Assembly (NCBI GenBank): GCA_963827505.1
Contig: CAWHBD010000002.1
Location: 393,692 to 457,691, forward strand
DNA from: an uncultured Candidatus Rokubacteria bacterium
Lineage (GTDB): Bacteria; Methylomirabilota; Methylomirabilia; Rokubacteriales; CSP1-6
DNA: 64,000 nucleotides
Direction: 5' to 3'
The notes under the pieces were generated by a model, which was given only the letters and a program-made list of their open reading frames with translations, was not told the DNA's origin and searched no databases. This document shows positions 1 to 63,449 of this stretch, one piece after another. Each line of letters opens with the position of its first letter. Positions within the stretch are counted from its first letter, which is position 1. The position numbers and the translations under genes were made by a program.

Positions 1-192
1 GTCGTCACCGACGCAGCCGATCAGCCGCACATCGGCGCCCAGCCGCCGCGCCGCCACCGCCTGGTTGGCGCCCTTGCCGCCGCGCGCGAGGAACAGCGTG
101 CCCTCGCTGACGGTCTCCCCCGGCCGCGGCAGCCGCGGAAGGGTGACGGTGAAGTCGGCGTTGGCCGAGCCGACGATCAGGACGCGGGGCAC
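1..192 (-). CDS. rbsK: PfkB-family sugar kinase, most likely ribokinase; only the N-terminal ~64 codons are in the window (gene runs off the 5' edge)
   Basis: Reverse complement of 1-192 translates VPRVLIVGSANADFTVTLPRLPRPGETVSEGTLFLARGGKGANQAVAARRLGADVRLIGCVGDD, the classic ribokinase N-terminus (GGKGANQAVAAxRLG). The GTG start at 192 overlaps the stop of the nucleoside hydrolase downstream by 16 nt. Confidence 0.55.
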   Translation of the reverse strand, partial: MPRVLIVGSANADFTVTLPRLPRPGETVSEGTLFLARGGKGANQAVAARRLGADVRLIGCVGDD

Positions 193-1074
193 AGCCGCTC
201 CAGGAACGCGGCCAGGAACCGTGAGGTGTCGACACGGCGCGCGAAACGACAGTTGACCGGGCCGGCCGCCCGCCGCGTCTGCCCGTCGGGGGCGACCTCG
301 ATGCGCGTTTCCTCCCAGCCGACGAGGCTCGGATCGAGCGCGGCCGCCACCGCCAGCGGGTCGTGCAACACCATGCCCGAGGTTCCCGCATCGCCGGTGA
401 ACCCGCGCCGCGTGAAGGCGGCCACGCGGGTGGCCAGCGGGCCTGGGCAGCGGCCCAGCGCGCGCTCGAAGTCCTCGCGCGAGACGACGGCCTGGCGGGT
501 GGCGTCGAGCGGGACGAAGTCCACCGGCAGCGCCGCCGCGACCACGCGCGCGGCGGCCTCGGGATCGACGTGGATGTTGAACTCCGCGGTCGGCGTCACG
601 TTGCCGCGCACGTCGACGGCGCCGCCCATCACCACCACGCGGGCCAGCCGCCCCAGCGCCACCCGGTCACGCTCCAGTGCCAGGGCCACGTTGGTCAGCG
701 GCCCGAGCGCGATCAGGGTCAGGGGCTCGACCGCCTGCCGGGCCGTCTGCACGATCAGCTCGGCCGCGCTCTGGGGCACCAGCGTCCCCGCCGAGGGGGG
801 CCACTCCGGGAGGTCCCCCAGGCCGTCCTCGCCGTGGTACGCGGTCGCCGTCACCAGCGGGCGGCCCAGCGGCGCCGCCGCCCCCTCGGCGATGGGCGGC
901 GGCACGATGCCGGCGCAGCGCCACGAGGCGCAGCAGGTTGCGGGTGGCCGCGGCCACCGGCACGTTGCCAGCCACCGTGGTGAGGGCGGCCAGCCGCAGG
1001 TCCGGCGAGTTCCAGGCGTACAGCAGCGCCAGGGCGTCGTCGAGGCCCGGATCGGTGTCGATCAGGGCGAGCAT
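177..1074 (-). pseudogene. Inosine-uridine-preferring nucleoside hydrolase (IUNH family), disrupted by one frameshift near 905-935
   Basis: N-terminal frame (667..1098 ORF) reads MLALIDTDPGLDDALALLYAWNSPDLRLAALTTVAGNVP, the DTDPGxDD nucleoside hydrolase signature. C-terminal frame (177..905 ORF) reads LIALGPLTNVALALERD...VVVMGGAVDVRGNVTPTAEFNIHVDPEAA. The two halves are in different frames. Confidence 0.6.
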
Positions 1075-1145
1075 GGAATCGGGATGGCGCCCGGACACGT
1101 CATATACAATGACGTAACAATCCTGCCCGGGGGGAGGGACGAGTC

Positions 1146-1373
1146 ATGGACATCGAGATCCTGTATTGCGGGGAGTGAAACTACCTCCCCCAGGCCTCCA
1201 GTCTGCAGGCCTCCATCCAGAGCAAGTACGGCATGACGGCGCGCCTGAAGGAAGGCGTGGGCGGCATCTTCGAGGTGTACATCGACGGCCAGACCGCCTA
1301 CACCAACCAGGAGACGTACCGGTTCCCGACCGACGAGGAGATCTTCGCGAAGATCGACGCCGCTAAGAAGTAA
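1146..1373 (+). CDS. selW: SelW/Rdx-family selenoprotein (75 codons) with in-frame TGA (selenocysteine) at 1176-1178
   Basis: ATG at 1146 is preceded by GGGGAGGGA (RBS). Translation is MDIEILYCGE-U-NYLPQASSLQASIQSKYGMTARLKEGVGGIFEVYIDGQTAYTNQETYRFPTDEEIFAKIDAAKK, with stop TAA at 1371. The CxxU motif after a beta-strand and the GxFEV...G core match SelW/SelT/Rdx redox proteins. Reading through TGA keeps a single clean frame with GC3-rich codon usage. A hairpin AGGCCU(1192-1197)/AGGCCU(1207-1212) with a GU-containing loop starts 13 nt after the UGA (SECIS candidate). The ORF track misses this gene because of the TGA. Confidence 0.7.
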
Positions 1374-2636
1374 GCGCACGCTCGAGTTCCCCCTGGAAAC
1401 GCGGATGGGCCACGGTGAGCAACGCCGTGGCCCTCGCTGTGTCCGACAGCCCTCGCAGCCGCGCCGCCCCGTGCTCGGTCACGACCCAGTCGGCCAGGTA
1501 CCGAGGCGTGGTGACCGCCGCCCCCGCCGTCAGCCGCGGCACGATCCGCGAGACGGCGCCCTCCCGGCCCGTCGACGGCAGCGCGATCACCGACAGACCG
1601 CCGGCCGAGCGCGAGGCGCCCAGCACGAAGTCGAACTGCCCCCCGATCCCCGCCACCTGCCGCGGCCCCAGGCTCTCGGCGGTGACCTGTCCGGTCAGGT
1701 CCACCTCGAGCGCCGAGTTGATGGCGACGAACCGGTCGAGGCGCGCGATGACGTCGGGGTCGTGCGTGTAGGCCGCCGACTCCATGTTGACCGTGTCGCT
1801 GGCGCCGAGAAAGTCGAACGTGCGCCGCGTGCCCATGGCCTCGGCCAGGTCCATCCGCCCGCGATGCACGCGCTTGCGCGCGCCGGTCACGACGCCGCGC
1901 TCGACCAGGGCCACGCCATGGTCGACCAGCAGCGAGTGCAGGGCGAGGTCGCGGTGACCGGTCAAGCGCCTCGAGCACCGCCTGCGGAATGGCGCCCGAC
2001 GCCCACCTGGACGGCGGCGCCGTCCGGCACCAGGGCCGCCACGTGGGCGCCGATCGCGCGCTCGACCGCGCCCACCACCGGTGGCGGGTACTCCACCAGC
2101 GCGCTCGTCGACGTCCACGCGGATGTCGACCTGGCTGGCGTGCAGCCACGCATTGCCGCGGGTGCGCGGCATGCGCGGGATTGACCTGGGCGATGACGAG
2201 CGGGGCCAGCCGCGCCGCCGGCAGCGCCACGCCCACGCCGACGCCGAGGCTCAGGTAGCCGCGCGCGTCGGGCGGCGCGGTGTGCACCAGCACGCAGTCG
2301 GGCGGCCAGCGGCCGCCGGGCAGCGAACTCGGTCGCCACGTCGAAGTAGCGCACCGGCAGGAACTCGACGCGGCCGCGCCGGCGGGCGTCCTCCAGCCGG
2401 GGCGACATGTGCCAGGTGGCGTAGCGGAGCGCCGCACATTCCGGCCGGGCCCACGGATAGTCGCCGAGGTGGATCCCGCCCATGAGCGTGAGGTCGGGCA
2501 GCCGCTCGGACTGCCGGCAGATCTCGGCGACGAGCGCGCGCGGCTCCCCGCAGCCGGGCGGCAGCAGCACCCGCATGCCGGGCCGCAGCCGCTCGACGGC
2601 CTGCTTCGGCGTCATCGCGACGAACCCTCGCGCCAT
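1363..2636 (-). pseudogene. Acetyl-CoA hydrolase/transferase family protein (4-hydroxybutyrate CoA-transferase-like), about 5 frameshifts
   Basis: N-terminus MTPKQAVERLRPGMRVLLPPGCGEP...FLPVRYFDVATEF (frame of ORF 1962..2636). The following pieces DARGYLSLGVGVGVALPAARLAPLVIAQVNP, RMPRTRGNAWLHASQVD, YPPPVVGAVERAIGAHVAALVPDGAAVQVGVG, SGAIPQAVLEALD and GTRRTFDFLGASDTVNMESAAYTHDPDVIARLDRFVAINSALEVDLTGQVTAESLG are spread over three frames. Its 3' end overlaps the selW 3' end by 11 nt (convergent). Confidence 0.6.
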
Positions 2637-2690: not shown

Positions 2691-2870
2691 ATGACCTGGA
2701 TCCGACGCACCCTCCTCTGCCTCGTCGCGCTCGTCGTGCTCGCCGGCTGCGCCGCGCCCGCCGCCTCGCCCCCGCGCGCCTCGCAGGCCCCGCGCACGCG
2801 CTGCCTCAGCAATCCCAACGAGACCGGGACCCGGCCGCTCCTCTTCCTGTTCTGCGTCGAGAGCCCGTAG
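2691..2870 (+). CDS. Small putative lipoprotein (59 aa), below the ORF-track length cutoff
   Basis: Translation is MTWIRRTLLCLVALVVLAGCAAPAASPPRASQAPRTRCLSNPNETGTRPLLFLFCVESP, a signal peptide with a LAGC lipobox. The region just upstream is AT-enriched (tatatacacc...gataatatg), which is rare in this window. GC3-rich codons. Confidence 0.35.
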   Translation: MTWIRRTLLCLVALVVLAGCAAPAASPPRASQAPRTRCLSNPNETGTRPLLFLFCVESP

Positions 2871-2887
2871 CCGCCGGCGGCGCCCAC

Positions 2888-3655
2888 GTGATGCGGGTGG
2901 CGTTCGTCACCGGCGGTGGTCGCGGCCTCGGGCGCGCGGTGGCGATGGCGCTGGCCCAGGCGGGACTCGCCGTGGCGGTCGGCGCCCGGACGCCGGAGCA
3001 GGTCGCGGCGGTGGTCGCGGAGATCCGCGCCGCCGGCGGGGAGGCGCTGGCGGTCGCGCTCGACGTGACGGAGCCGGCCTCGGTGACGGCGGCGGCCGCC
3101 GCCGCCGGCGCGCTGGGTCCGGTCGACGTCCTCGTCAACAACGCCGGCATCGCGGAGTCCGCCCCGTTCGTGCGCACCGACCTCGCGCTGTGGGAGCACC
3201 ACCTGCGTGTCAACGCCACCGGCCCTTACCTCACGGCGCGGGCCCTGCTGCCCGGCATGCTCGAGCGCCGGCGCGGCCGGGTGGTCAACGTCGCCTCCAT
3301 GGCCGGCCTGCACGGCGCGCCTTACGTGAGCGCGTATACGGCCTCCAAGCACGCGCTGGTCGGACTCACCCGGGCGCTGGCCGCCGAGGTGGCCGGGCGC
3401 GGCGTCACCATCAATGCCGTCTGCCCGGGCTTCGCGGCAACCGACATCGTGTGGAACGGGGCCCGCGCCATCGCGGCGCGGACCGGGCGCGCCTTCGAGG
3501 ACGCGGTGGCGGCGATGGCCGCCCTGAACCCGGGTGGCCGTCTGATCGAGCCGGCCGAGGTCGCCGACGCGGTTCTGCGCCTCGTGCGCGACGACACCAT
3601 CAACGGCGAGGCCGTCGTGCTCGACGGGACCGCGCCCCAGCGGAGGGAGCCATGA
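2888..3655 (+). CDS. SDR-family short-chain dehydrogenase/reductase (3-oxoacyl-ACP reductase-like)
   Basis: Intact 255 aa ORF. TGGGRGLG cofactor motif, NNAG and a YxxxK catalytic pair (YTASKHAL). Its stop overlaps the next start (ATGA). Confidence 0.85.
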   Translation: MMRVAFVTGGGRGLGRAVAMALAQAGLAVAVGARTPEQVAAVVAEIRAAGGEALAVALDVTEPASVTAAAAAAGALGPVDVLVNNAGIAESAPFVRTDLALWEHHLRVNATGPYLTARALLPGMLERRRGRVVNVASMAGLHGAPYVSAYTASKHALVGLTRALAAEVAGRGVTINAVCPGFAATDIVWNGARAIAARTGRAFEDAVAAMAALNPGGRLIEPAEVADAVLRLVRDDTINGEAVVLDGTAPQRREP

Positions 3656-4061
3656 AGGACCACATCAGCGCGGTGCGGCCGCGGACGCTGCCCAAGCCGG
3701 CCGGCTTCTCGTACGGCTACGAGGTCAAGCGGGGTCGGATCGTCTTCATCGCCGGCCAGGTTGCCCGTGACGAGCAGAACGCCCTCGTGGGCCGGGGCGA
3801 CCTCATCGTCCAGTTCCGCCAGGTCTGCCGCAACATCCAGACGGTCATGAGCGCCGCCGGTGGCGACATGACCGACATCGTGAAGCTGACGATCTACGTG
3901 CTCGATGCCAACGACTACAAGCTCCGGCTGACCGAGATCGGCACCGTTTACCGGGAGTACTTCGGCAAGCACTTCCCTGCCATGACGCTGGTCGGCGTCC
4001 GCGACCTGTTCGACGCCGCCGACGGCTGCCTCATCGAGATCGAGGGCGTCGCCGCCCTGGC

Positions 4062-4065
<4 letters not shown>
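3652..4065 (+). CDS. ridA: RidA/YjgF family reactive-intermediate deaminase
   Basis: MKDHISAVRPRTLPKPAGFSYGYEVKRGRIVFIAGQVARDE...MTLVGVRDLFDAADGCLIEIEGVAAL, the conserved RidA fold (137 aa). ATGA overlap with the genes on both sides. Confidence 0.8.
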
Positions 4066-5549
<1,484 letters not shown>

Positions 5550-5558
5550 TCGCCGAGC

Positions 5559-6284
5559 ATGCCCGCCCGTAGGCGACGGCGGCGCGGCCTCCGCCGCCTG
5601 CTCATCCTGGTCGTGCTCGCCGTCGTGGCGTGGCTCGCCTGGGAGGTGTGGGCGTGGCCCAACGTCGGCGCGCTGGCCGCGCGGCCACCAGCCACGACCG
5701 CGTTCATCGAGCGCTGGCGGGCGGCGCAGCGTCAGGCCGGGCGAAGCGATCAGATCGATCGGCGGTGGGCCGCGTACGGTTCGATCGCGCCGTCCATGAA
5801 GGTGGCGGTGCTGGTGGCCGAGGACATCAACTTCTTCTCGCATCGCGGATTCGACAGCGGCGAGATCCGCAAGGCGCTCACGCAGGCGATCGAGGAAGGC
5901 GAGCTGCCGCGGGGCGCCTCGACCATCAGCCAGCAGCTCGCCAAGAACTTGTGGCTGTCGCCCGCCCGCGACCCGCTCCGCAAGATGCGGGAGGCGATCC
6001 TGACCTGGCAGCTCGAGCGCACGCTCGGCAAGCGCCGCCTGCTCGAGCTGTACCTCAACGTCGTAGAATTCGGCCCGGGCGTGTGGGGGGTCGACAGCGC
6101 CAGCCGCCGCTACTTCGGCAAGGCGGCCGCCGACCTCGGCGACGACGAGGCGGCCCTGCTGGCCGCCGCCCTGCCGAGTCCGACCACGTGGCACCCGGGC
6201 TCCGGCAGCGTCGCGTATCGCCGCCACGCCGACAACGTACGACGCCGAATGGACAAGGCCCAGTTCCTGAGGAGGCTCATCTGA
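5559..6284 (+). CDS. mtgA: Monofunctional biosynthetic peptidoglycan transglycosylase
   Basis: 241 aa, N-terminal membrane anchor. Has the GT51 motifs EDINFFSHRGFD, GASTISQQLAKNL, RKMREAILTWQLERTLGKRRLLELYLN. Confidence 0.85.
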   Translation: MPARRRRRRGLRRLLILVVLAVVAWLAWEVWAWPNVGALAARPPATTAFIERWRAAQRQAGRSDQIDRRWAAYGSIAPSMKVAVLVAEDINFFSHRGFDSGEIRKALTQAIEEGELPRGASTISQQLAKNLWLSPARDPLRKMREAILTWQLERTLGKRRLLELYLNVVEFGPGVWGVDSASRRYFGKAAADLGDDEAALLAAALPSPTTWHPGSGSVAYRRHADNVRRRMDKAQFLRRLI

Positions 6285-7150
6285 TGGCCGCACCCGTGTT
6301 CCGTGACTACGATCAGAAGGCCCTCGACGCCGAGTACAACAATCGCGTCAAGGTCAAGAACGCCATGGACTGGATGGCCCGCGCCGGCGGCGAGAGTGCC
6401 CGGACCCGCGCCGAGCTGCCGCTCCGCTTCGACGTACCGTACGGCGCCCATCACGCCGAGCGCCTCGACATCTTCCCGGCCACGCGGCCGGGGCCGGCCC
6501 CGGTGCACGTCTTCATCCACGGGGGCTACTGGCAGCGCATGGACAAGGCCGACTTCAGCTTCGTGGCGCGCGGGCTGGGACCAGCCGGCGCCGCCACCGT
6601 CGTCATCAACTACGGCCTCGTGCCCTCGATCGACCTCGACACGCTCGTGCGGCAGTGCCGCGCCGCCGTGGCCTGGGTGCACCGTCACGCCACCGAGTGG
6701 GGCGGCGATCCCGGTCGGATCTCCATCTCCGGCCACTCGGCCGGCGGCCACCTGGTAGCCATGCTGCTCGCCACCGACTGGCCGGCGCTGGGCGTCCCCG
6801 CCGACGTCGTCAAGTCAGGGTGCGCGGTCAGCGGCCTGTACGACCTCGAGCCCATCCGCCTCTGCTATCTCAATCAGGTCCTGGCACTGACGCCCGAGGT
6901 GGCGCAGCGCAACAGTCCCGTGCTCCTGGCCCCGTCGCGGCCGACGCCGCTCATCCTGGCCCTCGGCGGCGCCGAGGGTCCCGAGTACCACCGGCAGACC
7001 GACGCCCTGGCGGCGGCGTGGCGGGCACGCGGGGTGCCGATCGAGGTGATGGACCTGCCCGGCCACGATCACTTCTCGATCGTCGCCGAGCTCGAATCGC
7101 CGTTCAGCTCGCTTGCACGCGCGATCCAGACGCAGATGGGTCTGGCCTAA
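6284..7150 (+). CDS. Alpha/beta-hydrolase fold esterase (arylformamidase / kynurenine-formamidase-like)
   Basis: Real start is MAAPVFRDYDQKALDAEYNNRVKVKNAMDW (ATG at 6284, TGATG overlap with mtgA). HGGYW oxyanion motif, nucleophile elbow GHSAGGHL, C-terminal HDHF. The long upstream extension in the ORF track (5630..) is an out-of-frame artefact. Confidence 0.8.
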   Translation: MAAPVFRDYDQKALDAEYNNRVKVKNAMDWMARAGGESARTRAELPLRFDVPYGAHHAERLDIFPATRPGPAPVHVFIHGGYWQRMDKADFSFVARGLGPAGAATVVINYGLVPSIDLDTLVRQCRAAVAWVHRHATEWGGDPGRISISGHSAGGHLVAMLLATDWPALGVPADVVKSGCAVSGLYDLEPIRLCYLNQVLALTPEVAQRNSPVLLAPSRPTPLILALGGAEGPEYHRQTDALAAAWRARGVPIEVMDLPGHDHFSIVAELESPFSSLARAIQTQMGLA

Positions 7151-7177
7151 CGTTCGGCCCGCTGGCGCGGGCGGCGC

Positions 7178-7347
7178 CGCTGGGCGGCGGGGGCGGCAGG
7201 GCGACAGGGCCTCCTGAGGTTCCGTTGGCTTCGATCGTGTAGGGCCTCACGTAGGACCAGGCTCCGACCGCGCCTTCGCGCGCCGGGTCGTCTCTCGCGG
7301 AACCGAAGGGGGCCCTGTCGCCCTGCCGCCCCCGCCGCCCACCGGCG
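7178..7347. repeat. Structured intergenic repeat, family 1, copy 1: ~38-bp self-complementary arms around a ~100-bp conserved core
   Basis: Left arm GCTGGGCGGCGGGGGCGGCAGGGCGACAGGGCC pairs with right arm GGCCCTGTCGCCCTGCCGCCCCCGCCGCCCAC. The core ...GGCTTCGATCGTGTAGGGCCTCACGTAGGACCAGGCTCCGAC... is ~90% identical to the reverse complement of 17200-17285. Lies between the convergent esterase and PQQ-dehydrogenase genes. Confidence 0.7.
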
Positions 7348-7394
7348 ATCCCGGCTGGCAGAAGGGCCAACCTCTCTCACGCGACGCGCATCGG

Positions 7395-8576: not shown

Positions 8577-8636
8577 GGCGCAACTCCAGTCTACGATGGC
8601 GTCTGCTACAATCCACCCCGCCCCGGAGGTGCAGCG

Positions 8637-9978: not shown

Positions 9979-10169
9979 ATGCCGTTCGTCAACATCACGA
10001 TCTACGAGGGCCACGGCAAGGACCGCAAGGACGAGATCGCCCGCCGGGTCACCGACGCCATCACCGACGTCTGCAAGCTGCCGCGCGAGGCGGTATGGGT
10101 GGTCTTCAAGGAGGTGACACCGCCCGACTGGTACGTGGCCGGCAAGCCGGGAGCGCCGGCAAGAAGTGA
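9979..10169 (+). CDS. 4-oxalocrotonate tautomerase family protein (~60 aa domain)
   Basis: MPFVNITIYEGHGKDRKDEIARRVTDAITDVCKLPREAVWVVFKEVTPPDWYVAGK has the catalytic Pro1 and the beta-alpha-beta fold. As written, the reading frame runs on without a stop into the gluconolactonase domain. An alternative frame gives ...AGKK-stop at 10167-10169. The 3' end is therefore uncertain (true fusion or a 1-nt indel). Confidence 0.5.
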
Positions 10170-11017: not shown

Positions 11018-11044
11018 GCGCGCCGACTCGACAAGGAGGTCGTC

Positions 11045-12243: not shown

Positions 12244-12349
12244 TTGGACTGGGGGCCACGACATGGCCCCCAGACCCCCAGGTCGCTCGGGGCGCCCCGG
12301 CGGAGCCGTGGCGCCCCTCGACCTTCGGGGGTAACCTAACGCGTCCTAC

Positions 12350-17131: not shown

Positions 17132-17157
17132 GCGCGTTCCCCCGCGCCGGCCACGCC

Positions 17158-45621: not shown

Positions 45622-45636
45622 GACGACGCCGTCGTC

Positions 45637-47368: not shown

Positions 47369-47378
47369 GCGGCCGCCG

Positions 47379-50379: not shown

Positions 50380-50416
50380 GACGGTATTGTACTCGCGGCC
50401 CCGGCGGCCGGGCGCA

Positions 50417-50446: not shown

Positions 50447-50517
50447 CTGCCTGTCACACGCTCGAGGCAGCGTCGCCCTCGGCAGTCCCCCGATCCCGGG
50501 TCACAAGGAGGCAACTG

Positions 50518-52047: not shown

Positions 52048-52064
52048 GGCGTGCCCGGGCCGCC

Positions 52065-52986: not shown

Positions 52987-52987
52987 A

Positions 52988-54030: not shown

Positions 54031-54219
54031 ATGCCAGCGAAGGTTCCTTGGTTGCCGTCGCAGTTGCCGCCGGGGGCGAGGCCGGAGAAGTGTCCGCGGT
54101 GCGGGAAGGCGGGGTTCATTCCGTGGACATTGCGGCGCGACGATCAGAGCAAGGTCGTCATGCGCACCTGGGTCTGCACGGAATGCCAGCTCACCCAGGA
54201 GCGCCCCGAGCCCGAGTAG
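54031..54219 (+). CDS. Small zinc-ribbon protein (62 aa, two CxxC pairs)
   Basis: MPAKVPWLPSQLPPGARPEKCPRCGKAGFIPWTLRRDDQSKVVMRTWVCTECQLTQERPEPE. CPRC...CTEC zinc-ribbon spacing, GC3-rich codons. Begins 13 nt after repeat copy B. The track's 54016 start is a TTG and is less likely. Confidence 0.4.
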   Translation: MPAKVPWLPSQLPPGARPEKCPRCGKAGFIPWTLRRDDQSKVVMRTWVCTECQLTQERPEPE

Positions 54220-55273: not shown

Positions 55274-55287
55274 GATTCAGTATACCG

Positions 55288-56169
55288 TCACTGCCGCCCG
55301 GTGACGGTCAACGAAAGCCCCAGCGCGATCAGCGCGCCGCCGGCCACCGTGAAGGCCGTCAGCGGCTCGTGCAGGAGCACGATTCCCAGGATGGCGCCGC
55401 CGATCGGCTGCACGGTGACGAAGACCGCCACCTGGGGAGCGGCGACCCGAGCCAGCGCCCAGTTCCACAGCAGGTAGCCGAACGCCGTGATCACCACCGC
55501 CAGGTAGAGGGCGCCGGCCACCGAGGCGGCCGTCAGCACCGGCCGGGCGCCCCCCAGCCATTCGGCGACGACGAACGGGACCATGACCACCGCGCCCCAC
55601 ACGATCGAGCGCACGGTCACCCGCAACGGGCTGTGGCGGCTCAGCACGCCGCGGCCGAGCAGCGTGTAGGCGCCGAAGGCGAGGCCGGAGAGCACGAGGA
55701 GGAGGTCACCGCGCCAGTGCGGCGCCAGCCCGCGCGTGACTCCCGGCACGCCGTTGAGGATGACGACGACGGCGCCCAGCACGGCCAGGACGGCGCCGGC
55801 CGCCTCCCGGCGGCTCATGCGCTCGCCCAGGACCAGCGGGCTGAGCGCCATGATCGACACCGGCTCGACGATGATCAGCAGCGCGGCGTTGGTGGCGGTC
55901 GACCGGGCCAGCCCCCAGTGGCCGAAGGCGAAGGCGCCGGCGAAGCCGATGACGCCCATCCAGACGATGCGCCGGGCGTCGGCCCGGTCCGGCGGCGCCG
56001 TCCCGGGCTCGAGCATCCGCACGAGCGGGATCAGGACGGCGGCGCCGACGACCAGCCGCACGAGCGCCAGCAGGGCGGGTGGCAGCTCGTCGAGCACGAC
56101 GCGAATGGCGACGTAGGACGTCGCGTAGACGAGGTTGGCGCCGAGGAGCAGAGCGTAGGCCGAGCGCAC
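55288..56169 (-). CDS. DMT-superfamily (EamA-like) transporter, 10 TM
   Basis: Two EamA repeats. Hydrophobic throughout (MRSAYALLLGANLVYATSYVAIRVVLDELPPALLALVRLVVGAAVLIPL...). Intact 293 aa. Confidence 0.7.
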   Translation of the reverse strand: MRSAYALLLGANLVYATSYVAIRVVLDELPPALLALVRLVVGAAVLIPLVRMLEPGTAPPDRADARRIVWMGVIGFAGAFAFGHWGLARSTATNAALLIIVEPVSIMALSPLVLGERMSRREAAGAVLAVLGAVVVILNGVPGVTRGLAPHWRGDLLLVLSGLAFGAYTLLGRGVLSRHSPLRVTVRSIVWGAVVMVPFVVAEWLGGARPVLTAASVAGALYLAVVITAFGYLLWNWALARVAAPQVAVFVTVQPIGGAILGIVLLHEPLTAFTVAGGALIALGLSLTVTGRQ

Positions 56170-56188: not shown

Positions 56189-56849
56189 TCAGGCCAGGGT
56201 GTGCCGCACCATCTTGCTGTCGACCATGTAGATGACCATCTCGGCGATGTTGGTGGCGTGGTCGGCGACCCGCTCCAGGAACCGGGAGATGAGGATCAGG
56301 CCGGATGGCGCGCGGGATCGTGCGCGGCGTCCTCCATCATGAAGGTCAGCAGCTCGCGGAAGATCTGCTCCTTGAGCGCGTCGACCTCGGCGTCCTCGCC
56401 GCACACCCGCCGGGCCAGCGCGGTGTCGCGGGCCACGAAGGCGTCCAGGCTCTCCTTCACCATGCGCTGGGCGCGCTCGGCCATGCGGGGCAGGTCGATG
56501 TAGGGCTTGAGCTGGGGCTCCTGGTTCAGCTCCAGCGCCCGCTGGGCGATGTTCACCGCCTGGTCGCCGATGCGCTCGAGGTCGGTGACGATCTTCATGG
56601 CGGTGGTGATGAAGCGGAGGTCGCCGGCCGCCGGCTGGTGCAGGGCGAGCAGCTCCACGCACTTCTCGTCGACCTCGACGTCGTAGGCGTTCACCTGACG
56701 GTCGCGGTCGATGACCTCCTGGGCGAGCTCGTCGTCGCGCTCGAGGAGCGCGCGTCATGACCCGCGCGGATCTGGTCCTCGACCAGCCCGCCCATGGCGA
56801 GCAGGGTCTGCTTGAGCGCCTCCAGCTCCTCGTGGAAGTGCCGCTGCAT
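56189..56849 (-). pseudogene. phoU: Phosphate transport system regulator PhoU, 2 frameshifts
   Basis: MQRHFHEELEALKQTLLAMGGLVEDQIRAGHDA | ..DDELAQEVIDRDRQVNAYDVEVDEKCVELLALHQPAAGDLRFITTAMKIVTDLERIGDQAVNIAQRALEL...FMMEDAA | LILISRFLERVADHATNIAEMVIYMVDSKMVRHTLA-stop. Confidence 0.6.
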
Positions 56850-56862
56850 GCGGGCCTCCGCC

Positions 56863-57689
56863 CTAGCCGAACCGGCCGGTGATGTAGTCCTCGGTCTGCT
56901 GGTCCCGCGGATTGGTGAAGAGCTCCCGGGTGACGCCGAACTCCACCAGCTCGCCCAGGAGCATGAAGCCCGTGTAGTCCGACACGCGGGCCGCCTGCTG
57001 CATGTTGTGGGTGACGATGACGATCGTGTAGCTGTTCTTCAGCTCGAGCATCAGCTCCTCGATCCTGGCCGGTGGCGATGGGGTCGAGCGCCGAGCACGG
57101 CTCGTCCATCGAGCAGCACGTCGGGCTCCACCGCGATGGCCCGGGCGATGCAGAGCCGCTGCTGCTGCCCGCCCGAGAGGCCGAGCGCGCTCTCGTGAGC
57201 CGGTCCTGCACCTCGTCCCACAGGGCGGCCGCGCGCAGGCTCCGCTCCACGATGCCGTCGAGGTCGGCGCCGGCTGCCGCACGCCGAGGATGCGGGGCCC
57301 GTAGGCGACGTTCTCGAAGATCGACTTCGGGAACGGGTTGGACTTCTGGAACACCATGCCCACCCGCTTGCGCAGCTCGGTGACGTCGAGCGCGGGATCG
57401 TAGATGTCGGCGCCGCCGATGCGGATGGCGCCCGTGATCGTGCACGCCGTCGACGAGGTCGTTCATGCGGTTGAGGCAGCGGAGCAGGGTGCGACTTGCC
57501 GCAGCCCGACGGGCCGATGTAGGCGGTGATCCGGTGCTTGGGGACCGACATCGAGACGTCCTTGAGCGCCTGCTTGTCGCCGTACCAGAGGGACAGGTGC
57601 TCGATCTCGACCATGGGCGTCTCCATGATGGCGGCGGCTGCCGCGCGCGGATTCGAGGCTCGCGGCCGACCTGCGACGGGTCCAGCCAT
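56863..57689 (-). pseudogene. pstB: Phosphate ABC transporter ATP-binding protein PstB, about 4 frameshifts
   Basis: GAGGAG RBS before MAGPVAG...[45 protein letters not shown] (Walker A) | ..RAGVRQPLGP../[26 protein letters not shown] (signature, Walker B) | [66 protein letters not shown]-stop. Confidence 0.6.
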
Positions 57690-57705
57690 CACGTGTCTCC
57701 TCGGC

Positions 57706-59315
57706 CTAGACCGCCGACGTCGCGTACTGCCGGCGCAGCCGGTTGCGCATGCGCGATCGCGAACAGGTTCAGGAAGACCACGATCACCAGCAGGAGCAGC
57801 GTGGTCGCGAAGACCATCGGGCGGGCCGCGTCCACGTTCGGGCGACTGGAAGCCGACGTCGTAGATGTGGAAGCCCAGGTGCATGAACTTCCGGTCGAGG
57901 TGCAGGAACGGCCAGAAGCCGTCGATCGGCAGCGACGGGCGCCAGCTTCACGACGCCGGTGATCATCAGCGGCGCCACCTCGCCGGCGGCGCGGGCCATG
58001 GCCAGGATGAGGCCGGTGAGGATCGACGGCATGACCGCCGGCAGGACCACGCGCAGCGTCGTCTCCAGCTTGGTCGCGCCGACAGCGCCAGCGAGGCCTC
58101 GCGCGTGCCGCGCGGGATCGCGGCCAGCCCCTCCTCGGTGGCCACGATCACCACCGGCACCGTCAGCAGGGCCAGCGTGAGCGAGGCCCACAGGATGCCG
58201 CCGGTGCCGAAGGTCGGGGTGGGCAGCGCCTCGGCGAAGAAGAGCCGGTCGATGGTGCCGCCCACGATGTAGATGAAGAAGCCCACGCCGAAGACGCCGA
58301 ACACGATGGACGGCACGCCGGCCAGGTTGTTGACGGCGATCCGCACCGCGCTCACGAAGGCGCCCTGCCGGGCGTACTCGCGCAGGTAGAAGGCGGCGAG
58401 CACGCCCAGCGGCGTCACCAGGAGCTCATGATGAAGACCATCATCACGGTGCCGAAGATGGCCGGGAACACGCCCGCCCTCGGTGTTCGACTCGCGCGGG
58501 TCGTCGGAGACGAACTCCCACACCCGGCCGGCGTAGTGCGCGGCCTTGGCGCGCGATGCCCATCTGCGTTGGGAAAGTGCACGTCGAGCGACCTGGGCCA
58601 GCGGCAGCTCCTTCTCCTTGCCGCCGTCGGCCGTCACCACGACGGCTGCGCCGTCTGCCGCGTCGCGCAGCTCGACCAGGCGGGCCTCCTGCTCCTTGTA
58701 GCGCTCCTGGAGCGCCGCGATCTCGCGCCCGCAGCGCCTCCACCGTCGGGCCGGTCGGTGACGCCGTCGCAGCTCGAGCGCCCTGCAGCCGCAGGCGGAT
58801 CTGCTCCTGGGCGTGGTTGATGGCGCCGATGTCGCCGCGCTCGATGCCGCGGATCTCCGGCGCGGAGCGCGGTCGACCTCGGGCAGGCGCCGGCTCGAGC
58901 TCGGCCCACGCGGCGCGGGCCGGCGGCGACCACGCGCTCGCCCTCGCGCACCTCCTTGATGGTGCCGATCGAGGAGCCCCCACTCCGTCCGCTCGATGAC
59001 CGCGACCTCCGGGGGTCGCTCGCGCGCGACGATCTGGGCCTCGTCGACCCACACGAAGTCGGCCCCGTAGAGGTCGCGGTTGGCCACCTTCAGCTTGATG
59101 CCGGTACTGGCCGGCCGCGCCCGGGAACCCGCTCGCGCTCGGCCACTGGCCGGTCAGCGCCTTGCCGTCCTGCAGGGTGAGCGCGCAGGACCTCGGCCGG
59201 CCAGAAGAAGCCGAGCGCCGTTGGACAGGATGATGCCGATCAGGCCAGCGACCATGAGCAGGGCCAGGGCAGCGCGCCACCGGTGAGCCAGATGAACGGC
59301 TCGCCGCTCCGCCAC
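57706..59315 (-). pseudogene. pstA: Phosphate ABC transporter permease PstA, long form with extended N-terminal region; multiple frameshifts
   Basis: VAERRAVHLAHRWRAALALLMVAGLIGIILSN.., ..LAAFYLREYARQGAFVSAVRIAVNNLAGVPSIVFGVFGVGFFIYIVGGTIDRLFFAEALPTPTFGTGGILWASLTLALLTVPVVIVATEEGLAAIPRG.., [45 protein letters not shown].., true C-terminus [14 protein letters not shown]-stop in a shifted frame. Confidence 0.55.
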
Positions 59316-59335
59316 AGCTGGCAGGCGCTCGGCGG

Positions 59336-61600
59336 CTCACAGGTAGCGGTACTTCCGGCGCAGGCGCAGGCGCACCAGCTCGGCCACGGTGTTGACGACG
59401 AAGGTCAGGCAGAAGAGCAGGAAGGCGGCGAGGAACAGGACCCGGAACAGCGTGCCGCCCTCCGGCGCCTCCGGCAGCTCGACCGCGATGTTGGCGCGAC
59501 AGCGCGCGGAAGCCGTTGAAGATGCTCCAGTCCATCACCGGCGTGTTGCCGGTCGCCATGAGCACGATCATCGTCTCGCCCACCGCCCGCCCGAAGCCGA
59601 TCATGATCGCCGAGAAGATGCCGGGGCTCGCGGTGGGCAGCACGATGCGCAGGGCGGTCTGCCAGCGGTTGGCGCCGAGCGCCAGCGAGCCCGCGCGCAG
59701 GTGCTGGGGCACGTTGGCCAGCGAGTCCTCGGCGATCGTGAAGATGATCGGGATCACCGCGAAGCCCATCGCCACGCCCACCACCAGCGAGTTGCGCTGG
59801 TCGTAGGTGAGCCCCAGCGCGGACGAGGAGCCAGCCCCGGTAGTTGCCGGCGAGCAGCCGCGCTCTCGACGAGGCCGCCCAGCGCGAAGGCCAGCCAGGC
59901 GCCCACGACGCACCACCGGCACCAGCAGGAACACCTCGGTGCCGGTCCGGAAGCGGCCGCGGATGCGGCAGCGGCAGCGACTGCCACAGCAGCAGCGCGA
60001 CGAGGATGCACACGGTCAGCGACGAGCGGCAGCAGGAAGAGCCCGGGCACGACCCGCTCGACCATCGGGCGCCAGCCACAGCCCGGCCAGGAAGCCCAGC
60101 ACCACGCTGGGCAGCGCCGCCATGATCTCGACCACCGGCTTCACGTACGCCTTCACCGTCGGGTGCATGAACTCGCTCACGTAGACGGCGGCGAGCAGCG
60201 CCAGCGGCACCGCGAACAGCAGCGCGTAGAACGTCCCCTTCAGCGTGCCGTAGATCAGCGGGCGTCAGGCTGAACTTGGCCTCGAAGTCGTCGGTGCCGC
60301 CGGTCGACTGCCAGACGTACGCCGGGCTGCGAGTACCCCTCGTACCAGACCTTGCCGAACAGCGGTGCCGAGGGTGATCTCCGGGTGCGGGTTGTCGCAG
60401 CGCCCAGTGCGCGAGACGGCCCTGCTCGTCGAGCGTCAGCAGCCCGTCGGCCTTGGGGGCGAACACGACGGCGCGGAGCGCCGCGCCATCGCCGGCACGC
60501 TCGAGCAGCGGTCGTCGCCCGACGTGCCGTAGTTGACGTGCAGGCCTGCCCGCCGGCGTCGACGGTGACGAAGCCCTTGTCGCGGCGCGACGCGGCTCGC
60601 CGCCACGACCCGGGCGCCGTGCGCGGTGAACTGGTGCGATGCGGGTCAGGCGGCGCCTCGCCGCCCGTCGGCGGCGGCACCACCTGCCAGGTCGAGACGC
60701 CACCGGCCTCGGTCGCCGACCACCAGGGTGCGGTCGCCGATCAGGAACTGCAGCAGCGGTGATCGGCGCGCCCGGCCGGCGCCGCCGCCACCGTCTCGGC
60801 CACGCGCGGGGCGCCGCCGTGTCGCGCAGGTCGTAGCGGACGACCTGCCCGCGCGGAGGTGCCGAGGAACAGATCCTCGCCGCGCCCGTCGAGCCGCAGC
60901 GCCGTGATCTCGCCCTCGGCCTCGACCGCCAGGGCCTGGATCGATTCCTCGCGCCGCGGCGCCCCGATCAGCGCCTTCTTCTCGACCACGCGTCTGCACG
61001 ACGAGCTCGCGCGGGACCGACCTGGGCGACCACGATCGGACCGGCGCCGGTGGCGGCCGCCGGCCAGCCGCAGGATCGGCCGCCGCGCGCTCGGGGTCGA
61101 GCGCAGCCGGCGTCGCCGAACTCCTGCTGCGGCGTGAGCACGCGCTGGCCGTCCTTGAAGTCGGCGTCGAACCGGACCTCGAGCGGCACCACGCGGCCGT
61201 CGGAGGTGCCGAGCGCGTGCTGGCCGCGTCCCGTCGTCGGCGACCGCCGTCACCCGGGCGCCCTCGAGCCCGGGCACCGGCACCGGCGGGTAGGCGCCGG
61301 CCACGCGCAGGGGCGTGAACTGCAGCGTGCCCGCCGGGGTGATGGCGTAGGCGATCTCGCGATACTCGTCGACGCCCAGCGGCATCGCCGGCGGCCGGCG
61401 CCGCGCCCGCGAGCCGCCTGCGCCGATCGCGCTCGGCCGTCGGCGGCCTGGAACAGTGGCCACGATCTCGGCCAGCGATCACGAACAGGATGGCCAGGAT
61501 CGACGGCGATGACGACGATCCCGCCGACGCACCACCAGGCGGGAGGCCCAGCGGTCGAGCGAGGATCCGACGCGCCGTCCGGGCCCGGGAGACGGTCAGC
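59336..61600 (-). pseudogene. pstC: Phosphate ABC transporter permease PstC, long form (~750 aa) with ~450-aa N-terminal extracytoplasmic domain; many frameshifts
   Basis: N-terminal TM (ILAILFVIAGEIVATVPG), then a long soluble region (GVDEYREIAYAITPAGTLQFTPLRVAGAYPPVPVPGLEGARVTAVADDG..., KADGLLTLDEQGRLAHWAL...VWQSTGGTDDFEAKFSLTP), then the canonical PstC core: LIYGTLKG..PLALLAAVYVSEFMHPTVKAYVKPVVEIMAALPSVVLGFLAGLWLAP...LTYDQRNSLVVGVAMGFAVIPIIFTIAEDSLANVPQHLRAGSLALGANRWQTALRIVLPTASPGIFSAIMIGFGRAVGETMIVLMATGNTPVMDWSIFNGFRALSANIAVELPEA..TVAELVRLRLRRKYRYL-stop. The 5' end is uncertain. Confidence 0.5.
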
Positions 61601-61650
61601 GGGCGGGCCGGGCAGCCGGCCCGCCCGCTCGAGCGTCGTCGATGGCCACC

Positions 61651-62632
61651 TACTGGACCTTGTTCAGCTCTTCCTTGGCGATCGGGGCCGGGATCGGGAA
61701 GTAGCCGTCCTTGACGACGACCTCCTGGCCCTCCTTGCGACAGCATCAGCTTGCACGAACTCCCGGGTCAGCGGATCCAGCGGCTTGCCGGGCGCCTTGT
61801 TGACGTAGACGAACAGGAACCGGGCCAGCGGGTAGGCGCCGCTGTAGGCGTTGTCGGCGGTCGCCTCGATAGCACTTGCCGCCGTCCTTCTCGGCGAGCG
61901 GCACCGCCCGGACCCCGGCGGTGGCGTAGCCGATGCCGCTGTAGCCCATGGCGAACCGGTCGACCGTGACGCCCTGCACCACCGAGGCCGAGCCCGGCTG
62001 CTCCTTCACCTCGTCCTTGAAGTCGCCGTTCTTGAGCGCGTGCTCCTTGAAGAACCCGTAGGTGCCGGAGGCCGAGTTGCGGCCGTAGAGGCTGATCGGG
62101 CTTGGCGGCCCACTCGCCGGTGAGGCCGAGCTGGCCCCAGGTCTCGACGTCATCCTTCGCGCCGCGGCGGCGCGACTTCGAGAACACCGCGTCCACCTGG
62201 GCGAGGCTCAGGCACTTGATCGGGTTGTCCTTGTTCACGAAGACCGCCAGCGCGTCGACCGAGGTGCGGATGCGCCGTCGGCTTGTAGCCGTACTTCTTC
62301 TCGAACTGGTCGATCTCGGTGCCCTTCATCTCGCGCGACATCGGGCCGAGCTGGGCGGTGCCGGCGATGAGCGCCGGCGGCGCCGTGGACGAGCCCTTGC
62401 CCTCGATCTGGATCTTGGCGTTCGGGTAGAACTTGCTGAACTGTCTCGGCCCAGAGGGTCATCAGGTTGTTGAGGGTGTCGGAGCCGATGCTCGAGATGT
62501 TGCCGCTGACGCCGCTCGTCGCCTTGTACGCCGGCAGGCCCGGATCCAGCTTGGACCTGGGCGCGACGGCGACGCCGCCGAGCAGCAGCACGCGACGCGG
62601 CCATCGCTGCGAGACTTCCACGCATTCTTCAT
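61651..62632 (-). pseudogene. pstS: Phosphate ABC transporter substrate-binding protein PstS, about 5 frameshifts
   Basis: GAGGAGAGAACAGAG precedes [57 protein letters not shown].. [24 protein letters not shown].. [122 protein letters not shown].. C-terminus ..ELNKVQ-stop. Confidence 0.6.
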
Positions 62633-62696
62633 CTCTGTTCTCTCCTCGTGTGTGGTCTGCATGGTCCCGTGCCGGCGTTGCGGGGCGGTGACAGGC

Positions 62697-62714
62697 GTGT
62701 TACGGTTGTGTTAC
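62697..62714 (-). promoter_or_regulatory. Pho-box-like direct repeats (two 8-bp units at 11-bp spacing) upstream of pstS
   Basis: On the minus strand this reads CGTAACAC-AAC-CGTAACAC, a direct repeat with one-helical-turn spacing, the architecture of OmpR/PhoB-family binding sites. It lies ~65-80 nt upstream of the pstS ATG and overlaps the last codons and stop of the PhoB-like regulator gene. Confidence 0.4.
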
Positions 62715-63449
62715 GAACGGCCGGGACTCCCGGAAGCGGTAGCCGACTCCCCGCACCGTCTCGATCGCGGGCGTCGGGCAGCCGGGCGGCGGTGAACTTG
62801 GCGCGCAGCCGGGCCACGTGCACGTCCACGGTGCGCGGCTCCACGAAGCCGTCGCGGCCCCAGACGAGGTCCAGCAGCTCCTCCCGGCCGAACACCCGCC
62901 CCGGCGCGCCGACCAGGGTGGCGAGCAGCTCGAACTCCTTGGGCGTGAGCTCGACGGGCCGACCCTTCATCCGGACCTCGAAGCGATGACGGTCGATCTC
63001 GAGGTCGCCGGCCCTGAGCACTGGCGCCTTGCGCTCGGCGCCGTCGGCCCGTCCGCGCCGGACCACCGCCCGCACGCGGGCCAGCAGCTCGCGCGGGCGA
63101 GAACGGCTTGGTCACGTAGTCGTCGGCGCCCATCTCGAAGCCGAGCACCTTGTCGCCTTCCTCGGCCCGGCCGGTCACCATGATCACGGGGATGGCGCGC
63201 GGTCTCGGCGTCCTGCTTGAGCCGGCGGCAGACCTCCCAGCCGTTGAGCTGCGGGACCATGATGTCCAGCAGGATCGACGTCCGGGCGCGCCTCCCGGGC
63301 CTGCTTGAGGGCGTCGGCGCCGTTAGCCGCGACGACGACGTCGTAGCCTTCCTTGCCGAGGTTGTAGCGGATCAGCTCGGCGACGTCCGCGCTCGTCCTC
63401 GACAACCAGCACCCGGCCCAATCCGCGTGTCGACGTGGCGATCTTCATC
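62699..63449 (-). pseudogene. OmpR/PhoB-family response regulator (REC + winged helix), orphan (no histidine kinase adjacent); about 4 frameshifts
   Basis: [51 protein letters not shown] | ..[51 protein letters not shown] | ..[93 protein letters not shown] | ..[21 protein letters not shown]-stop. Confidence 0.55.

What the first reader, a model, noticed from the sequence alone, without database searches (positions are those of the whole stretch)
177..63449. Frameshift disruptions clustered in specific genes, including all five transporter operons, while interspersed genes are intact
About 30 genes carry 1 to 8 or more frame changes each, yet the encoded peptides are otherwise highly conserved. 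The disrupted genes are:
- IUNH and acetyl-CoA hydrolase
- SGL and livKHMGF
- amidase, dctPQM, LON-N, mrp, flavin reductase, DegT and GT1
- the MsbA-like exporter and a membrane protein
- nadE and the dpp-like SBP-B-C genes
- phoU, pstBACS and the PhoB-like regulator.
About 30 kb of neighbouring genes have none, including an 18.6-kb run at 15809-34448. Intact genes sit immediately beside broken ones (selW; the PDZ gene; the lipoprotein at 47978). RBSs, start/stop overlaps and codon bias are preserved in the broken genes. This argues against old pseudogenes. It favours either systematic indel errors in low-coverage or error-prone parts of an assembly (several shifts fall in short tandem or low-complexity runs), or very recent simultaneous inactivation. 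If the shifts are real, the organism has lost the Liv, TRAP, Dpp and Pst uptake systems and NAD synthetase at once.
Basis: partly seen in the sequence, partly recalled or inferred. Interest (0 to 1): 0.6.

Follow-up and report, generated by a model that had tools for sequence, protein, structure and literature searches.

The report
Frameshifts from a mixed-strain assembly consensus
The roughly 30 "broken" genes are not dying genes: almost every frame change is a single extra base found only in this sequence. That base usually repeats a neighbouring variable site, which points to a long-read metagenome consensus built from mixed strains, so the finding is an artefact.

Summary
About 30 genes of this 72%-GC Rokubacteria (Methylomirabilota) window change reading frame 1 to 27 times, in five blocks separated by clean stretches.

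The cause is technical, not biological:
- **Insertion bias.** Against up to 12 relatives per 500-bp chunk, the window has 172 private one-base and 15 two-base insertions, but only 16 one-base deletions. These account for 106 of 117 frame junctions.
- **Intact in other assemblies.** Short-read assemblies of the same species carry the IUNH, acetyl-CoA hydrolase and SGL genes intact. Another long-read assembly has LivK, amidase, DctQ and Mrp intact, but is broken in genes that are intact here.
- **Not in homopolymers.** 74% of insertions differ from both neighbouring bases.
- **Doubled variable sites.** In 87-92% of cases the extra base equals the allele that relatives carry at the adjacent site. 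Controls gave 41-50%, and no simulation reached the observed value. A variable site is written twice, once per allele.
- **Foreign alleles.** The broken blocks also carry window-private substitutions that match more distant relatives.

Best explanation: two haplotypes were collapsed into one consensus. The organism has not lost Liv, TRAP, Dpp, Pst or NadE. Interest is low, except as a diagnostic signature for this kind of error.

The parts
192..2624 (-). Block A: the IUNH gene (192-1074) and the acetyl-CoA hydrolase gene (1371-2624). Six window-private one-base insertions lie at 912, 1968, 1994, 2103, 2174 and 2321.
   Evidence: each of the six bases is absent from 8 same-species contigs (L166-L173) and from L085 and L089; acetyl-CoA hydrolase is called at 415 aa, intact, in 8 of 8 contigs, and IUNH at 298 or 324 aa; 16 window-private substitutions cluster at 1500-3000, and 12 of them match alleles of distant relatives.
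1143..1369 (+). SelW/Rdx-like gene between the two broken genes of block A. It is intact and carries an in-frame TGA at 1176-1178 within a C-G-E-U motif.
   Evidence: One search gives the translation MDIEILYCGE*NYLPQ..; relatives have a 46-aa Rdx (weak) gene call at the same place.
2691..9872 (.). Clean stretch holding a lipoprotein, SDR, RidA, OYE, transglycosylase, esterase, GSDH and amidohydrolase.
   Evidence: no window-only inserted columns at 3001-9999. L083 is 99.5% identical over 7374-9826 with no gaps; only substitutions against L081 and L082.
9979..15688 (+). Block B: the tautomerase and SGL genes (fused here by 8-bp and 5-bp insertions) and livK, livH, livM, livG and livF. It has about 44 private frame-breaking insertions and 3 deletions. 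The first is at 10138-10155 and the last at 15372-15373.
   Evidence: aligned with same-species L081, L082 and L164; per-chunk and per-gene counts. SGL is 280 aa in L081 and LivK is 396 aa in L164.
10138..10155 (+). An 8-bp insertion that reads as two versions of the same stretch placed one after the other: GCCGGCAA, then GCCGGGAG.
   Evidence: L081 and L164 have GCCGGGAC, while L086 has GCGGGCAA. The window carries one copy resembling each version.
11061..11062 (+). Example of a doubled variable site. The window reads CAC-T-G-CTG. L081 has the T allele and L164 has the G allele, each without the other base.
   Evidence: Alignment.
15809..34448 (.). Clean 18.6-kb run. Frames change only at gene boundaries.
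   Evidence: essentially no window-extra bases within coding sequence here. The other long-read assembly (L164) has its own extra bases at 18000-19500 and 21000-24000.
34700..47875 (.). Block C: amidase, dctM, dctQ, dctP, LON-N, mrp, flavin reductase, DegT, GT1, an MsbA-like exporter and a membrane protein. The PDZ gene (40378-41045) keeps its frame.
   Evidence: window-extra bases against same-species L165 at 35017, 35354, 36625, 37381, 37498, 38304, 38602, 38614, 38937, 39022, 39041, 39055, 39096, 39277 and further on; in L165 amidase (447 aa), DctQ (234 aa) and Mrp (316 aa) are intact; 44 single insertions at 41-47.4k, of which 84% match the adjacent allele.
48656..53886 (.). Block D: nadE (one insertion at 49692-3) and a dpp-like operon of binding protein, B and C genes (14 insertions and 1 deletion, spanning 51059-53496).
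54191..56169 (-). Clean pair of genes: a LOG-family gene and an EamA transporter gene.
   Evidence: L163 (Logan contig) is 99.5% identical over 55061-56264 with no gaps; the exact proteins occur in independent assemblies.
56192..63449 (-). Block E: phoU, pstB, pstA, pstC, pstS and a phoB-like regulator. It has about 71 private insertions and 4 deletions, roughly one per 65-100 bp. Substitution divergence from L001 rises to 7-12%, against 2-4.5% in the flanks.
   Evidence: alignment in which 9 relatives all keep the frame..

Best explanation
The frame changes are consensus errors of a long-read metagenome assembly. They arose where reads from two related haplotypes were collapsed into one sequence: the backbone strain plus a more divergent co-occurring strain or relative.

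At many sites where the two haplotypes differ, the consensus wrote both alleles one after the other instead of choosing one. The result is a one-base insertion, or occasionally a 2-8-base tandem near-duplicate. At other variable sites it simply took the foreign allele. The broken blocks are therefore the stretches where a second haplotype contributed reads. Stretches with one haplotype, or with near-identical haplotypes, came out clean.

The genes are intact in the organism.

**Shown here:**
- The indels are private to this sequence.
- Insertions greatly outnumber deletions.
- The insertions avoid homopolymers.
- The inserted base matches the allele of the adjacent site.
- Foreign alleles sit in the same blocks.
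- A second long-read assembly is broken in different genes.

**Inferred:**
- The sequencing platform and the assembler or polisher used.
- That reads in these blocks really fall into two haplotypes.
- Why these particular blocks recruited a second haplotype.
For: 1. **Insertion bias.** There are 172 one-base and 15 two-base window-only insertion events against 16 one-base deletions. 106 of 117 same-strand frame junctions lie within 40 nt of such an event.
2. **Relatives keep the frame.** All relatives stay in frame where the window shifts, for example 9 of 9 across 58400-59300.
3. **Same-species short-read assemblies are intact.** L081 and L082 have SGL at 280 aa. L166-L173 have acetyl-CoA hydrolase at 415 aa in 8 of 8 and IUNH at 298 or 324 aa.
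4. **Another long-read contig of the same species is broken elsewhere.** This is ERZ25039547 contig_14354 (L164-L166). LivK (396 aa), amidase (447 aa), DctQ (234 aa) and Mrp (316 aa) are intact there. GSDH, OYE, the transglycosylase, Lhr and SGL are split there, although they are intact in the window and, for GSDH, OYE, the transglycosylase and SGL, in the short-read contigs that cover them.
5. **The inserted base matches the adjacent allele.**
   - It equals an allele that relatives carry at the adjacent column in 92% of 91 events, against 41±5% for random insertion (0 of 1000 simulations reached this).
   - The figure is 82-93% in each of blocks B, C, D and E.
   - It is 88% against 41% after planting random insertions and re-aligning (Fisher p = 3e-23).
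   - It is 87% against 50±3.5% with flanking-base-matched controls.
6. **Homopolymers are avoided.** Only 25-28% of inserted bases equal a neighbouring base, against 55% expected.
7. **Direct examples.** Site 11061 carries the L081 allele followed by the L164 allele. The 8-bp tandem at 10138-10155 holds one L086-like and one L081-like version.
8. **Divergence is raised in the broken blocks.**
   - It is 2.5-3.3% against 0.2-1.1% versus L081 and L082.
   - It is 7-12% against 2-4.5% versus L001, while L001-L002 divergence stays flat.
   - Window-private substitutions cluster in block A, and 12 of 16 match alleles of distant relatives.
9. **A long-read source is likely.** Every exact-protein look-up reports one carrying contig longer than 1 Mb. 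That is only plausible for a long-read assembly of a soil Rokubacterium.
10. **Literature support.** Flye collapses strains of 97.6-98.65% identity into one consensus (PMC8302730). Polishers have frequent problems in heterozygous regions (bioRxiv 10.1101/2020.12.14.422624).
Against: - No reads, coverage or assembly metadata were available, so the two-haplotype mixture is inferred, not observed.
- In block A the second allele is not seen in any of 8 same-species contigs, only in relatives about 75-85% identical. The second contributor is therefore unsampled.
- A strong context preference exists: 55 of 172 insertions are C[G]C or G[C]G. This could partly reflect a systematic base-caller or polisher bias, although the flanking-base-matched control still leaves 87% against 50%.
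- I know of no published description of exactly this "both alleles in tandem" output for a named polisher.
- Why all five transporter operons fall in affected blocks is not explained.
Confidence: 0.8

Rival explanations
1. Ordinary random read noise. The blocks would be low-coverage, unpolished or long-read gap-filled stretches whose residual errors are raw sequencing indels.
For: - The errors cluster in blocks with sharp edges, while flanking DNA is clean.
- A second long-read assembly of the same species also has private indels.
- Low coverage could coexist with the mixture model.
Against: - Random insertions would match an adjacent-site allele in about 41-50% of cases, not 87-92%.
- They would extend homopolymers about 55% of the time, not 26%.
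- Nanopore errors, by established knowledge, are mostly homopolymer-linked deletions. Here insertions outnumber deletions by about 10 to 1 and avoid homopolymers.
- The accompanying private substitutions match real alleles of relatives in 12 of 16 cases, rather than being random.
Confidence: 0.1
2. Genuine, very recent pseudogenisation. This strain would really have lost the Liv, TRAP, Dpp and Pst uptake systems, NadE and the other affected genes through many small insertions.
For: - The frame changes are in the deposited sequence.
- The affected genes form functional groups, namely uptake systems.
- Ribosome-binding sites and codon bias are preserved, as expected if inactivation were very recent.
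Against: - One gene carries up to 27 frameshifts yet still gives near full-length Pfam matches.
- Insertions outnumber deletions 10 to 1. Bacterial pseudogenes are known to show a deletion bias.
- Natural insertions arise mainly by slippage in repeats, and these avoid repeats.
- No known mutation process inserts the neighbouring site's alternative allele.
- The genes are intact in 7 short-read and 1 long-read same-species assemblies.
- The other long-read assembly is broken in a different set of genes.
- Loss of NadE and Pst would be hard to survive.
Confidence: 0.02
3. A systematic, sequence-context-specific error of the base-caller or polisher, such as a methylation-linked miscall that inserts G in C|C or C in G|G. 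No second haplotype would be involved.
For: C[G]C or G[C]G contexts make up 55 of 172 insertions, and 61% of insertions create a CpG-containing triplet.
Against: - The same contexts are abundant in the clean 30 kb, yet there are no private insertions at 3001-9999, 49001-49500 or 54501-55999.
- Controls matched for flanking bases still give only 50% against the observed 87%.
- The model does not explain the foreign substitutions that sit in the same blocks.
- It does not explain the 8-bp two-version tandem.
Confidence: 0.06

Closest known systems
Indel and frameshift errors in long-read (Nanopore or PacBio) assemblies and metagenome-assembled genomes
   Same: - Small indels split otherwise conserved genes.
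- The splits disappear in short-read assemblies of the same organism.
- Medaka polishing is used to reduce such errors in the Flye assemblies of the closest relatives L001 and L002 (PMC12313526). Homopolymer indels are the classic Nanopore problem (PMC9262707).
   Different: - The errors here are not in homopolymers.
- They are insertions rather than deletions.
- They sit next to variable sites and repeat the alternative allele.
- They are confined to blocks rather than spread along the contig.
Strain-collapsed consensus contigs in metagenome assemblers (metaFlye; described in the Strainberry paper, PMC8302730)
   Same: Strains about 97.6-98.65% identical are merged into one consensus that diverges from each individual strain. 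In the broken blocks the window is a mosaic of backbone alleles and foreign alleles.
   Different: That paper does not describe doubled alleles. Here the collapse seems restricted to some blocks, and the second contributor looks more divergent than ordinary same-species strains.
Polishing artefacts in heterozygous regions of diploid assemblies (Hapo-G preprint, 10.1101/2020.12.14.422624)
   Same: Polishers that work locally on pile-ups or partial-order alignments have frequent problems where two haplotypes map to one collapsed sequence.
   Different: That is a eukaryotic, diploid, short-read-polishing setting. The specific "both alleles in tandem" outcome is my inference from this window, not something quoted from that paper.
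Pseudogene-rich genomes undergoing reductive evolution (for example Mycobacterium leprae or recent symbionts; from general knowledge)
   Same: Many neighbouring genes carry frameshifts while others remain intact.
   Different: Real pseudogenes show a deletion bias, stop codons and relaxed substitution patterns, and they are shared by independent assemblies of the lineage. None of these holds here.

Membership tests
Genuine pseudogenes (recent inactivation) | The disrupting indels are present in independent assemblies of the same lineage. | tested here: not met
   The indels are absent from L081 and L082, from L166-L173 and from L164 and L165. In those contigs the genes are called intact.
Genuine pseudogenes (recent inactivation) | A mutation spectrum typical of bacteria: deletions at least as common as insertions, and indels arising by slippage in repeats. 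| tested here: not met
   There are 187 insertion events of 1-2 bases against 17 deletion events of 1-2 bases. 74% of inserted bases differ from both neighbours.
Genuine pseudogenes (recent inactivation) | Read-level support for each indel at normal depth. | not testable with these tools
   No reads or coverage data were available, and the source record was not retrievable.
Classical long-read homopolymer indel errors | Indels lie inside homopolymer runs, and deletions predominate. | tested here: not met
   Most events have a run length of 1, and only a few fall in runs of 3. Insertions predominate.
Mixed-haplotype (strain-collapsed) consensus artefact | Errors coincide with sites that vary between haplotypes and carry the alternative allele. 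| tested here: met
   87-92% observed against 41-50% in three kinds of control.
Mixed-haplotype (strain-collapsed) consensus artefact | Affected regions show mosaic or foreign alleles and raised divergence from the closest strains. | tested here: met
Mixed-haplotype (strain-collapsed) consensus artefact | Reads over the affected regions split into two haplotypes, and neither haplotype contains the extra base. | not testable with these tools
   This needs the raw reads of the source sample.
Programmed frameshifting or phase variation | One defined slippery site or simple-sequence repeat tract per gene, conserved in relatives. | tested here: not met
   A gene can carry up to 27 shifts. The shifts are not in repeats, and none is present in relatives.

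The most novel reading that the evidence does not exclude
The artefact blocks may mark something real underneath. They could be genomic islands where a soil Rokubacteria population carries two deeply divergent allele sets, roughly 5-10% apart, possibly introgressed from a related lineage, while the rest of the genome differs by less than 1%. These islands would fall preferentially on nutrient-uptake operons (liv, TRAP, dpp, pst). If so, the consensus errors would be a by-product of strong, localised allelic divergence or recombination at uptake systems.
Probability: 0.3. Interest if true: 0.3.

Novelty: not a real feature. Interest (0 to 1): 0.1.

Why it matters
**For annotation.** If taken at face value, the sequence would lead an annotator to conclude that this uncultured soil bacterium had lost branched-chain amino-acid, TRAP, peptide and phosphate uptake and NAD synthesis. 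That would distort metabolic reconstructions and pseudogene counts. The evidence here says those genes are intact.

**For quality control.** The signature offers a practical check that needs no reads, only a few relatives. Chimeric, strain-collapsed stretches in long-read MAGs can be flagged when all of the following occur together:
- private one-base insertions that avoid homopolymers;
- insertions that sit beside variable sites and repeat the alternative allele;
- foreign substitutions in the same stretch.

Such stretches should be re-polished after phasing rather than "repaired" by homopolymer-oriented tools.

Tried and rejected
Rejected. Most events have a run length of 1, and same-as-neighbour cases are depleted (26% against 55%).
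- **Lower GC of the broken blocks as a consequence of the errors.** Rejected. Orthologous stretches of L001 and L002 have the same GC.
- **Random-noise model.** Rejected by static, re-aligned and context-matched simulations.
- **Alignment artefact inflating the adjacent-allele statistic.** Checked by planting random insertions and re-running MAFFT, which gave 41%.
- **Blocks being simply the most conserved genes, attracting cross-mapped reads from other species.** Not supported.
  - L001-L002 divergence is only slightly lower in block E than in the flanks.
  - Divergence from the roughly 84%-identical relatives is similar in clean and broken parts.
- **Hybrid-assembly gap filling.** This could not be told apart from the mixture model on sequence alone. 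It does not predict allele doubling.
- **Retrieving the window's own source record.** Every look-up reported a carrying contig longer than 1 Mb, but it was never returned.
- **Same-species DNA for blocks D and E.**
  - L163 stops at 56264, just short of the first block E event.
  - The contig found with the LOG protein had no DNA available.
  - These blocks therefore rest on relatives of 93% identity or less.
- **Heavier tools.** The large protein-database searches, structure prediction and RNA tools were not needed and were not used.
Full report
**What the window is.** The window has 72% GC. A protein-guided scan of species-representative genomes with an intact LOG-family gene (54227-55249) returned only Rokubacteria/Methylomirabilota MAGs. 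The closest are L001 (MFD09212.bin.1.136, about 93% nucleotide identity) and L002 (MFD06229.bin.2.170, about 86%). Both come from the Microflora Danica project, which used Nanopore reads, Flye and one round of Medaka (PMC12313526). Many Illumina MAGs were also returned.

**Checking the observation.** A GC3 phase plot and a codon-usage Viterbi segmentation with a switching penalty both show dense same-strand frame changes in five blocks:
- A: 192-2624
- B: 9973-15688
- C: 34700-47875
- D: 49580-53886
- E: 56192-63387

Frames change only at gene boundaries in 2691-9872, 15800-34406 and 54227-56172. In detail: about 30 genes are affected, with 1 to 27 frame-breaking indels each.

**Who carries the indel.** I aligned 500-bp chunks of the window with up to 12 relatives.
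- The window alone has 172 one-base and 15 two-base insertion events, against 16 one-base deletions.
- 106 of 117 same-strand frame junctions in the regions with references lie within 40 nt of such a private event. The remainder are gene boundaries.
- Clean regions have no private inserted columns (3001-9999, 49001-49500, 54501-55999).
- Across 58400-59300, nine relatives from several projects, both Nanopore and Illumina, all stay in frame with each other. The window has about 22 extra bases there.

**Independent assemblies of the same species.** Exact-protein look-ups with intact window proteins found same-species contigs.
- L081 and L082 (SPAdes, ENA) cover 7388-11708 at about 98% identity. 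SGL is a 280-aa intact gene there. Both contigs lack the window's extra bases at 10138-45, 10174-81 and 10390. L081, which alone extends past 10726, also lacks the later ones up to 11683. The upstream genes differ from the window only by substitutions.
- L167-L173, seven MEGAHIT, SPAdes and JGI contigs from different samples, carry acetyl-CoA hydrolase at 415 aa intact, seven out of seven. Those reaching IUNH carry it at 298 or 324 aa.
- The window's six insertions at 912, 1968, 1994, 2103, 2174 and 2321 are absent from every covering contig.
- L083 (JGI) is 99.5% identical over 7374-9826 with no gaps. L163 (Logan) is 99.5% identical over 55061-56264 with no gaps.

**A reciprocal control.**
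- ENA ERZ25039547 contig_14354 is 810 kb and has a long-read-style name. It was retrieved as L164, L165 and L166, is the same species (96-99% identity) and covers window positions 1-44.5k.
- LivK (396 aa), amidase (447 aa), DctQ (234 aa) and Mrp (316 aa) are intact in it.
- GSDH, the 495-aa OYE, the transglycosylase, Lhr and SGL are split in it, although all are intact in the window. GSDH, OYE, the transglycosylase and SGL are also intact in the short-read contigs that cover them.
- That contig's own extra bases lie at 18000-19500 and 21000-24000, where the window is clean.

Two long-read assemblies of one species, each with private breaks in different genes, is what an artefact predicts. It is not what biology predicts.

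**What kind of error.**
- The events are not homopolymer errors. Most have a run length of 1. Only 25-28% of inserted bases equal a neighbouring base, against 55% expected for unconstrained random insertion.
- Inserted bases are GC-rich, like the genome.
- The decisive pattern is that the inserted base equals an allele that relatives carry at the adjacent alignment column.

| Test | Observed | Control |
|---|---|---|
| 91 events, random-insertion simulation | 92% | 41±5% (0 of 1000 simulations reach it) |
| Same events, three closest relatives only | 64% | 19±4% |
| Blocks B, C, D and E taken separately | 82-93% | 34-40% (0 of 500 each) |
| Controls matched for both flanking bases and the inserted base | 87% | 50±3.5% (0 of 1000) |

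- The strong C[G]C / G[C]G preference (55 of 172) is what doubling of C/G wobble polymorphisms would produce in a genome rich in GC at third codon positions.
- Direct examples are visible.
  - At 11061 the window reads T then G, where L081 has only T and L164 has only G.
  - At 10138-10155 the window has two 8-mers in tandem. One resembles the L086 version and the other the L081 version.
  - The deletion at 11201 looks like a hybrid of CCATGATG and CCCAGATG.

**Foreign alleles in the same blocks.**
- Substitution divergence rises exactly where the insertions are.
  - Against L081 and L082 it goes from 0.2-1.1% to 2.5-3.3%.
  - Against L001 it goes from 2-4.5% in the flanks to 7-12% in block E, while L001-L002 divergence stays flat.
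  - Against L164 and L165 it goes from about 0.3% in the clean 24-34.5k stretch to 2-5% in block C.
- Substitutions absent from all eight same-species contigs cluster at 1500-3000 (16 of them). There are none at 3000-5000. Twelve of the 16 carry the allele of a more distant relative.
- In block B the window's private alleles are likewise mostly those of the L086 or L087 lineage (by inspection).
- These are therefore real alleles from another lineage, not random noise.
- The lower GC of the broken blocks is a property of the genes, because the orthologues in L001 and L002 share it.

**Interpretation.** In the affected blocks the consensus was computed from a mixture of two haplotypes. At some variable sites it took the foreign allele. 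At others it wrote both alleles in tandem, adding one base and breaking the frame. This one model accounts for all of the following:
- the insertion bias;
- the avoidance of homopolymers;
- the GC-rich inserted bases;
- the block structure;
- the raised divergence;
- the different break pattern in the second long-read assembly.

Every look-up reported a carrying contig longer than 1 Mb, which is presumably the window's source and implies long reads. Published work supports the general setting. Flye collapses strains 97.6-98.65% identical into one consensus (PMC8302730). Polishers have frequent problems in heterozygous regions (Hapo-G preprint). I did not find a paper describing the exact doubling outcome, so that step is my inference.

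**Rivals.**
- *Random low-coverage noise* fails the adjacent-allele and homopolymer tests.
- *Real pseudogenisation* fails in several ways.
  - The genes are intact in independent assemblies.
  - The mutation spectrum is wrong.
  - It is implausible for a gene to carry 21-27 frameshifts yet keep otherwise conserved residues.
- *A purely context-driven base-caller error* fails because the same contexts are untouched in the clean 30 kb, and because context-matched controls remain far below the observed value.

**What remains open.**
- I could not see reads or coverage.
- The second contributor is unsampled. In block A its alleles appear only in relatives 75-85% identical.
- I cannot say why all five transporter operons lie in affected blocks. 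The blocks also hold many non-transporter genes, and one transporter gene (EamA) is clean.
- It is possible, but untested, that these operons are true hot spots of allelic divergence in the population.

**Verdict.** The inferred loss of uptake systems and NadE should be discarded. Interest is low.

Noticed in passing
window 1143-1369 (+), TGA at 1176-1178: The SelW/Rdx-like gene reads MDIEILYCGE-TGA-NYLPQ..., which is a CxxU motif. It is probably a selenoprotein whose Sec codon splits the open reading frame. Relatives are called only as a 46-aa Rdx (weak) fragment. A hairpin (GGCCUC...AGGCC) begins 13 nt after the UGA, but it folds no better than shuffled sequence (z = 0.66).
   Followed up: partly
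L164, L165 and L166 (ENA ERZ25039547 contig_14354), matching window 1-44.5k: A second public long-read-style contig of the same species has its own private frameshifts in GSDH, OYE, the transglycosylase, Lhr and SGL. The same artefact class therefore probably affects other public Rokubacteria assemblies.
   Followed up: partly
window 15500-34500 compared with L164 and L165: Divergence between the two same-species long-read assemblies is strikingly patchy. It is about 0.3% at 15.5-17k, 20-21k and 24-34.5k, but 6-10% at 17-19.5k and 3-6% at 21-24k. This is either recombination mosaicism in the population or chimeric consensus in one of the assemblies.
   Followed up: partly
window 36276-38301 (-), dctM: The stitched DctM is about 675 aa long. 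It has a roughly 130-residue Arg/Pro/Gly-rich middle stretch (around 37300-37700) that matches no Pfam model. The window has extra bases at 37381 and 37498 relative to L165. The stretch may therefore be an out-of-frame read-through between two shifts rather than a real insert.
   Followed up: no
window 9979-10995 (+): The 8-bp and 5-bp insertions (13 bp in total) fuse the 60-aa tautomerase gene in frame to the start of SGL. This creates an apparent fusion protein that does not exist in L081, L082 or L164.
   Followed up: yes
window 56004-56005 (EamA N-terminal region): A 2-bp difference from cross-species relatives appears inside the intact EamA gene. It is shared exactly by the independent Logan contig L163, so it is a genuine species-level difference or an alignment quirk, not an error. 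It also shows that the window-only-insertion criterion produces a small number of false positives.
   Followed up: partly
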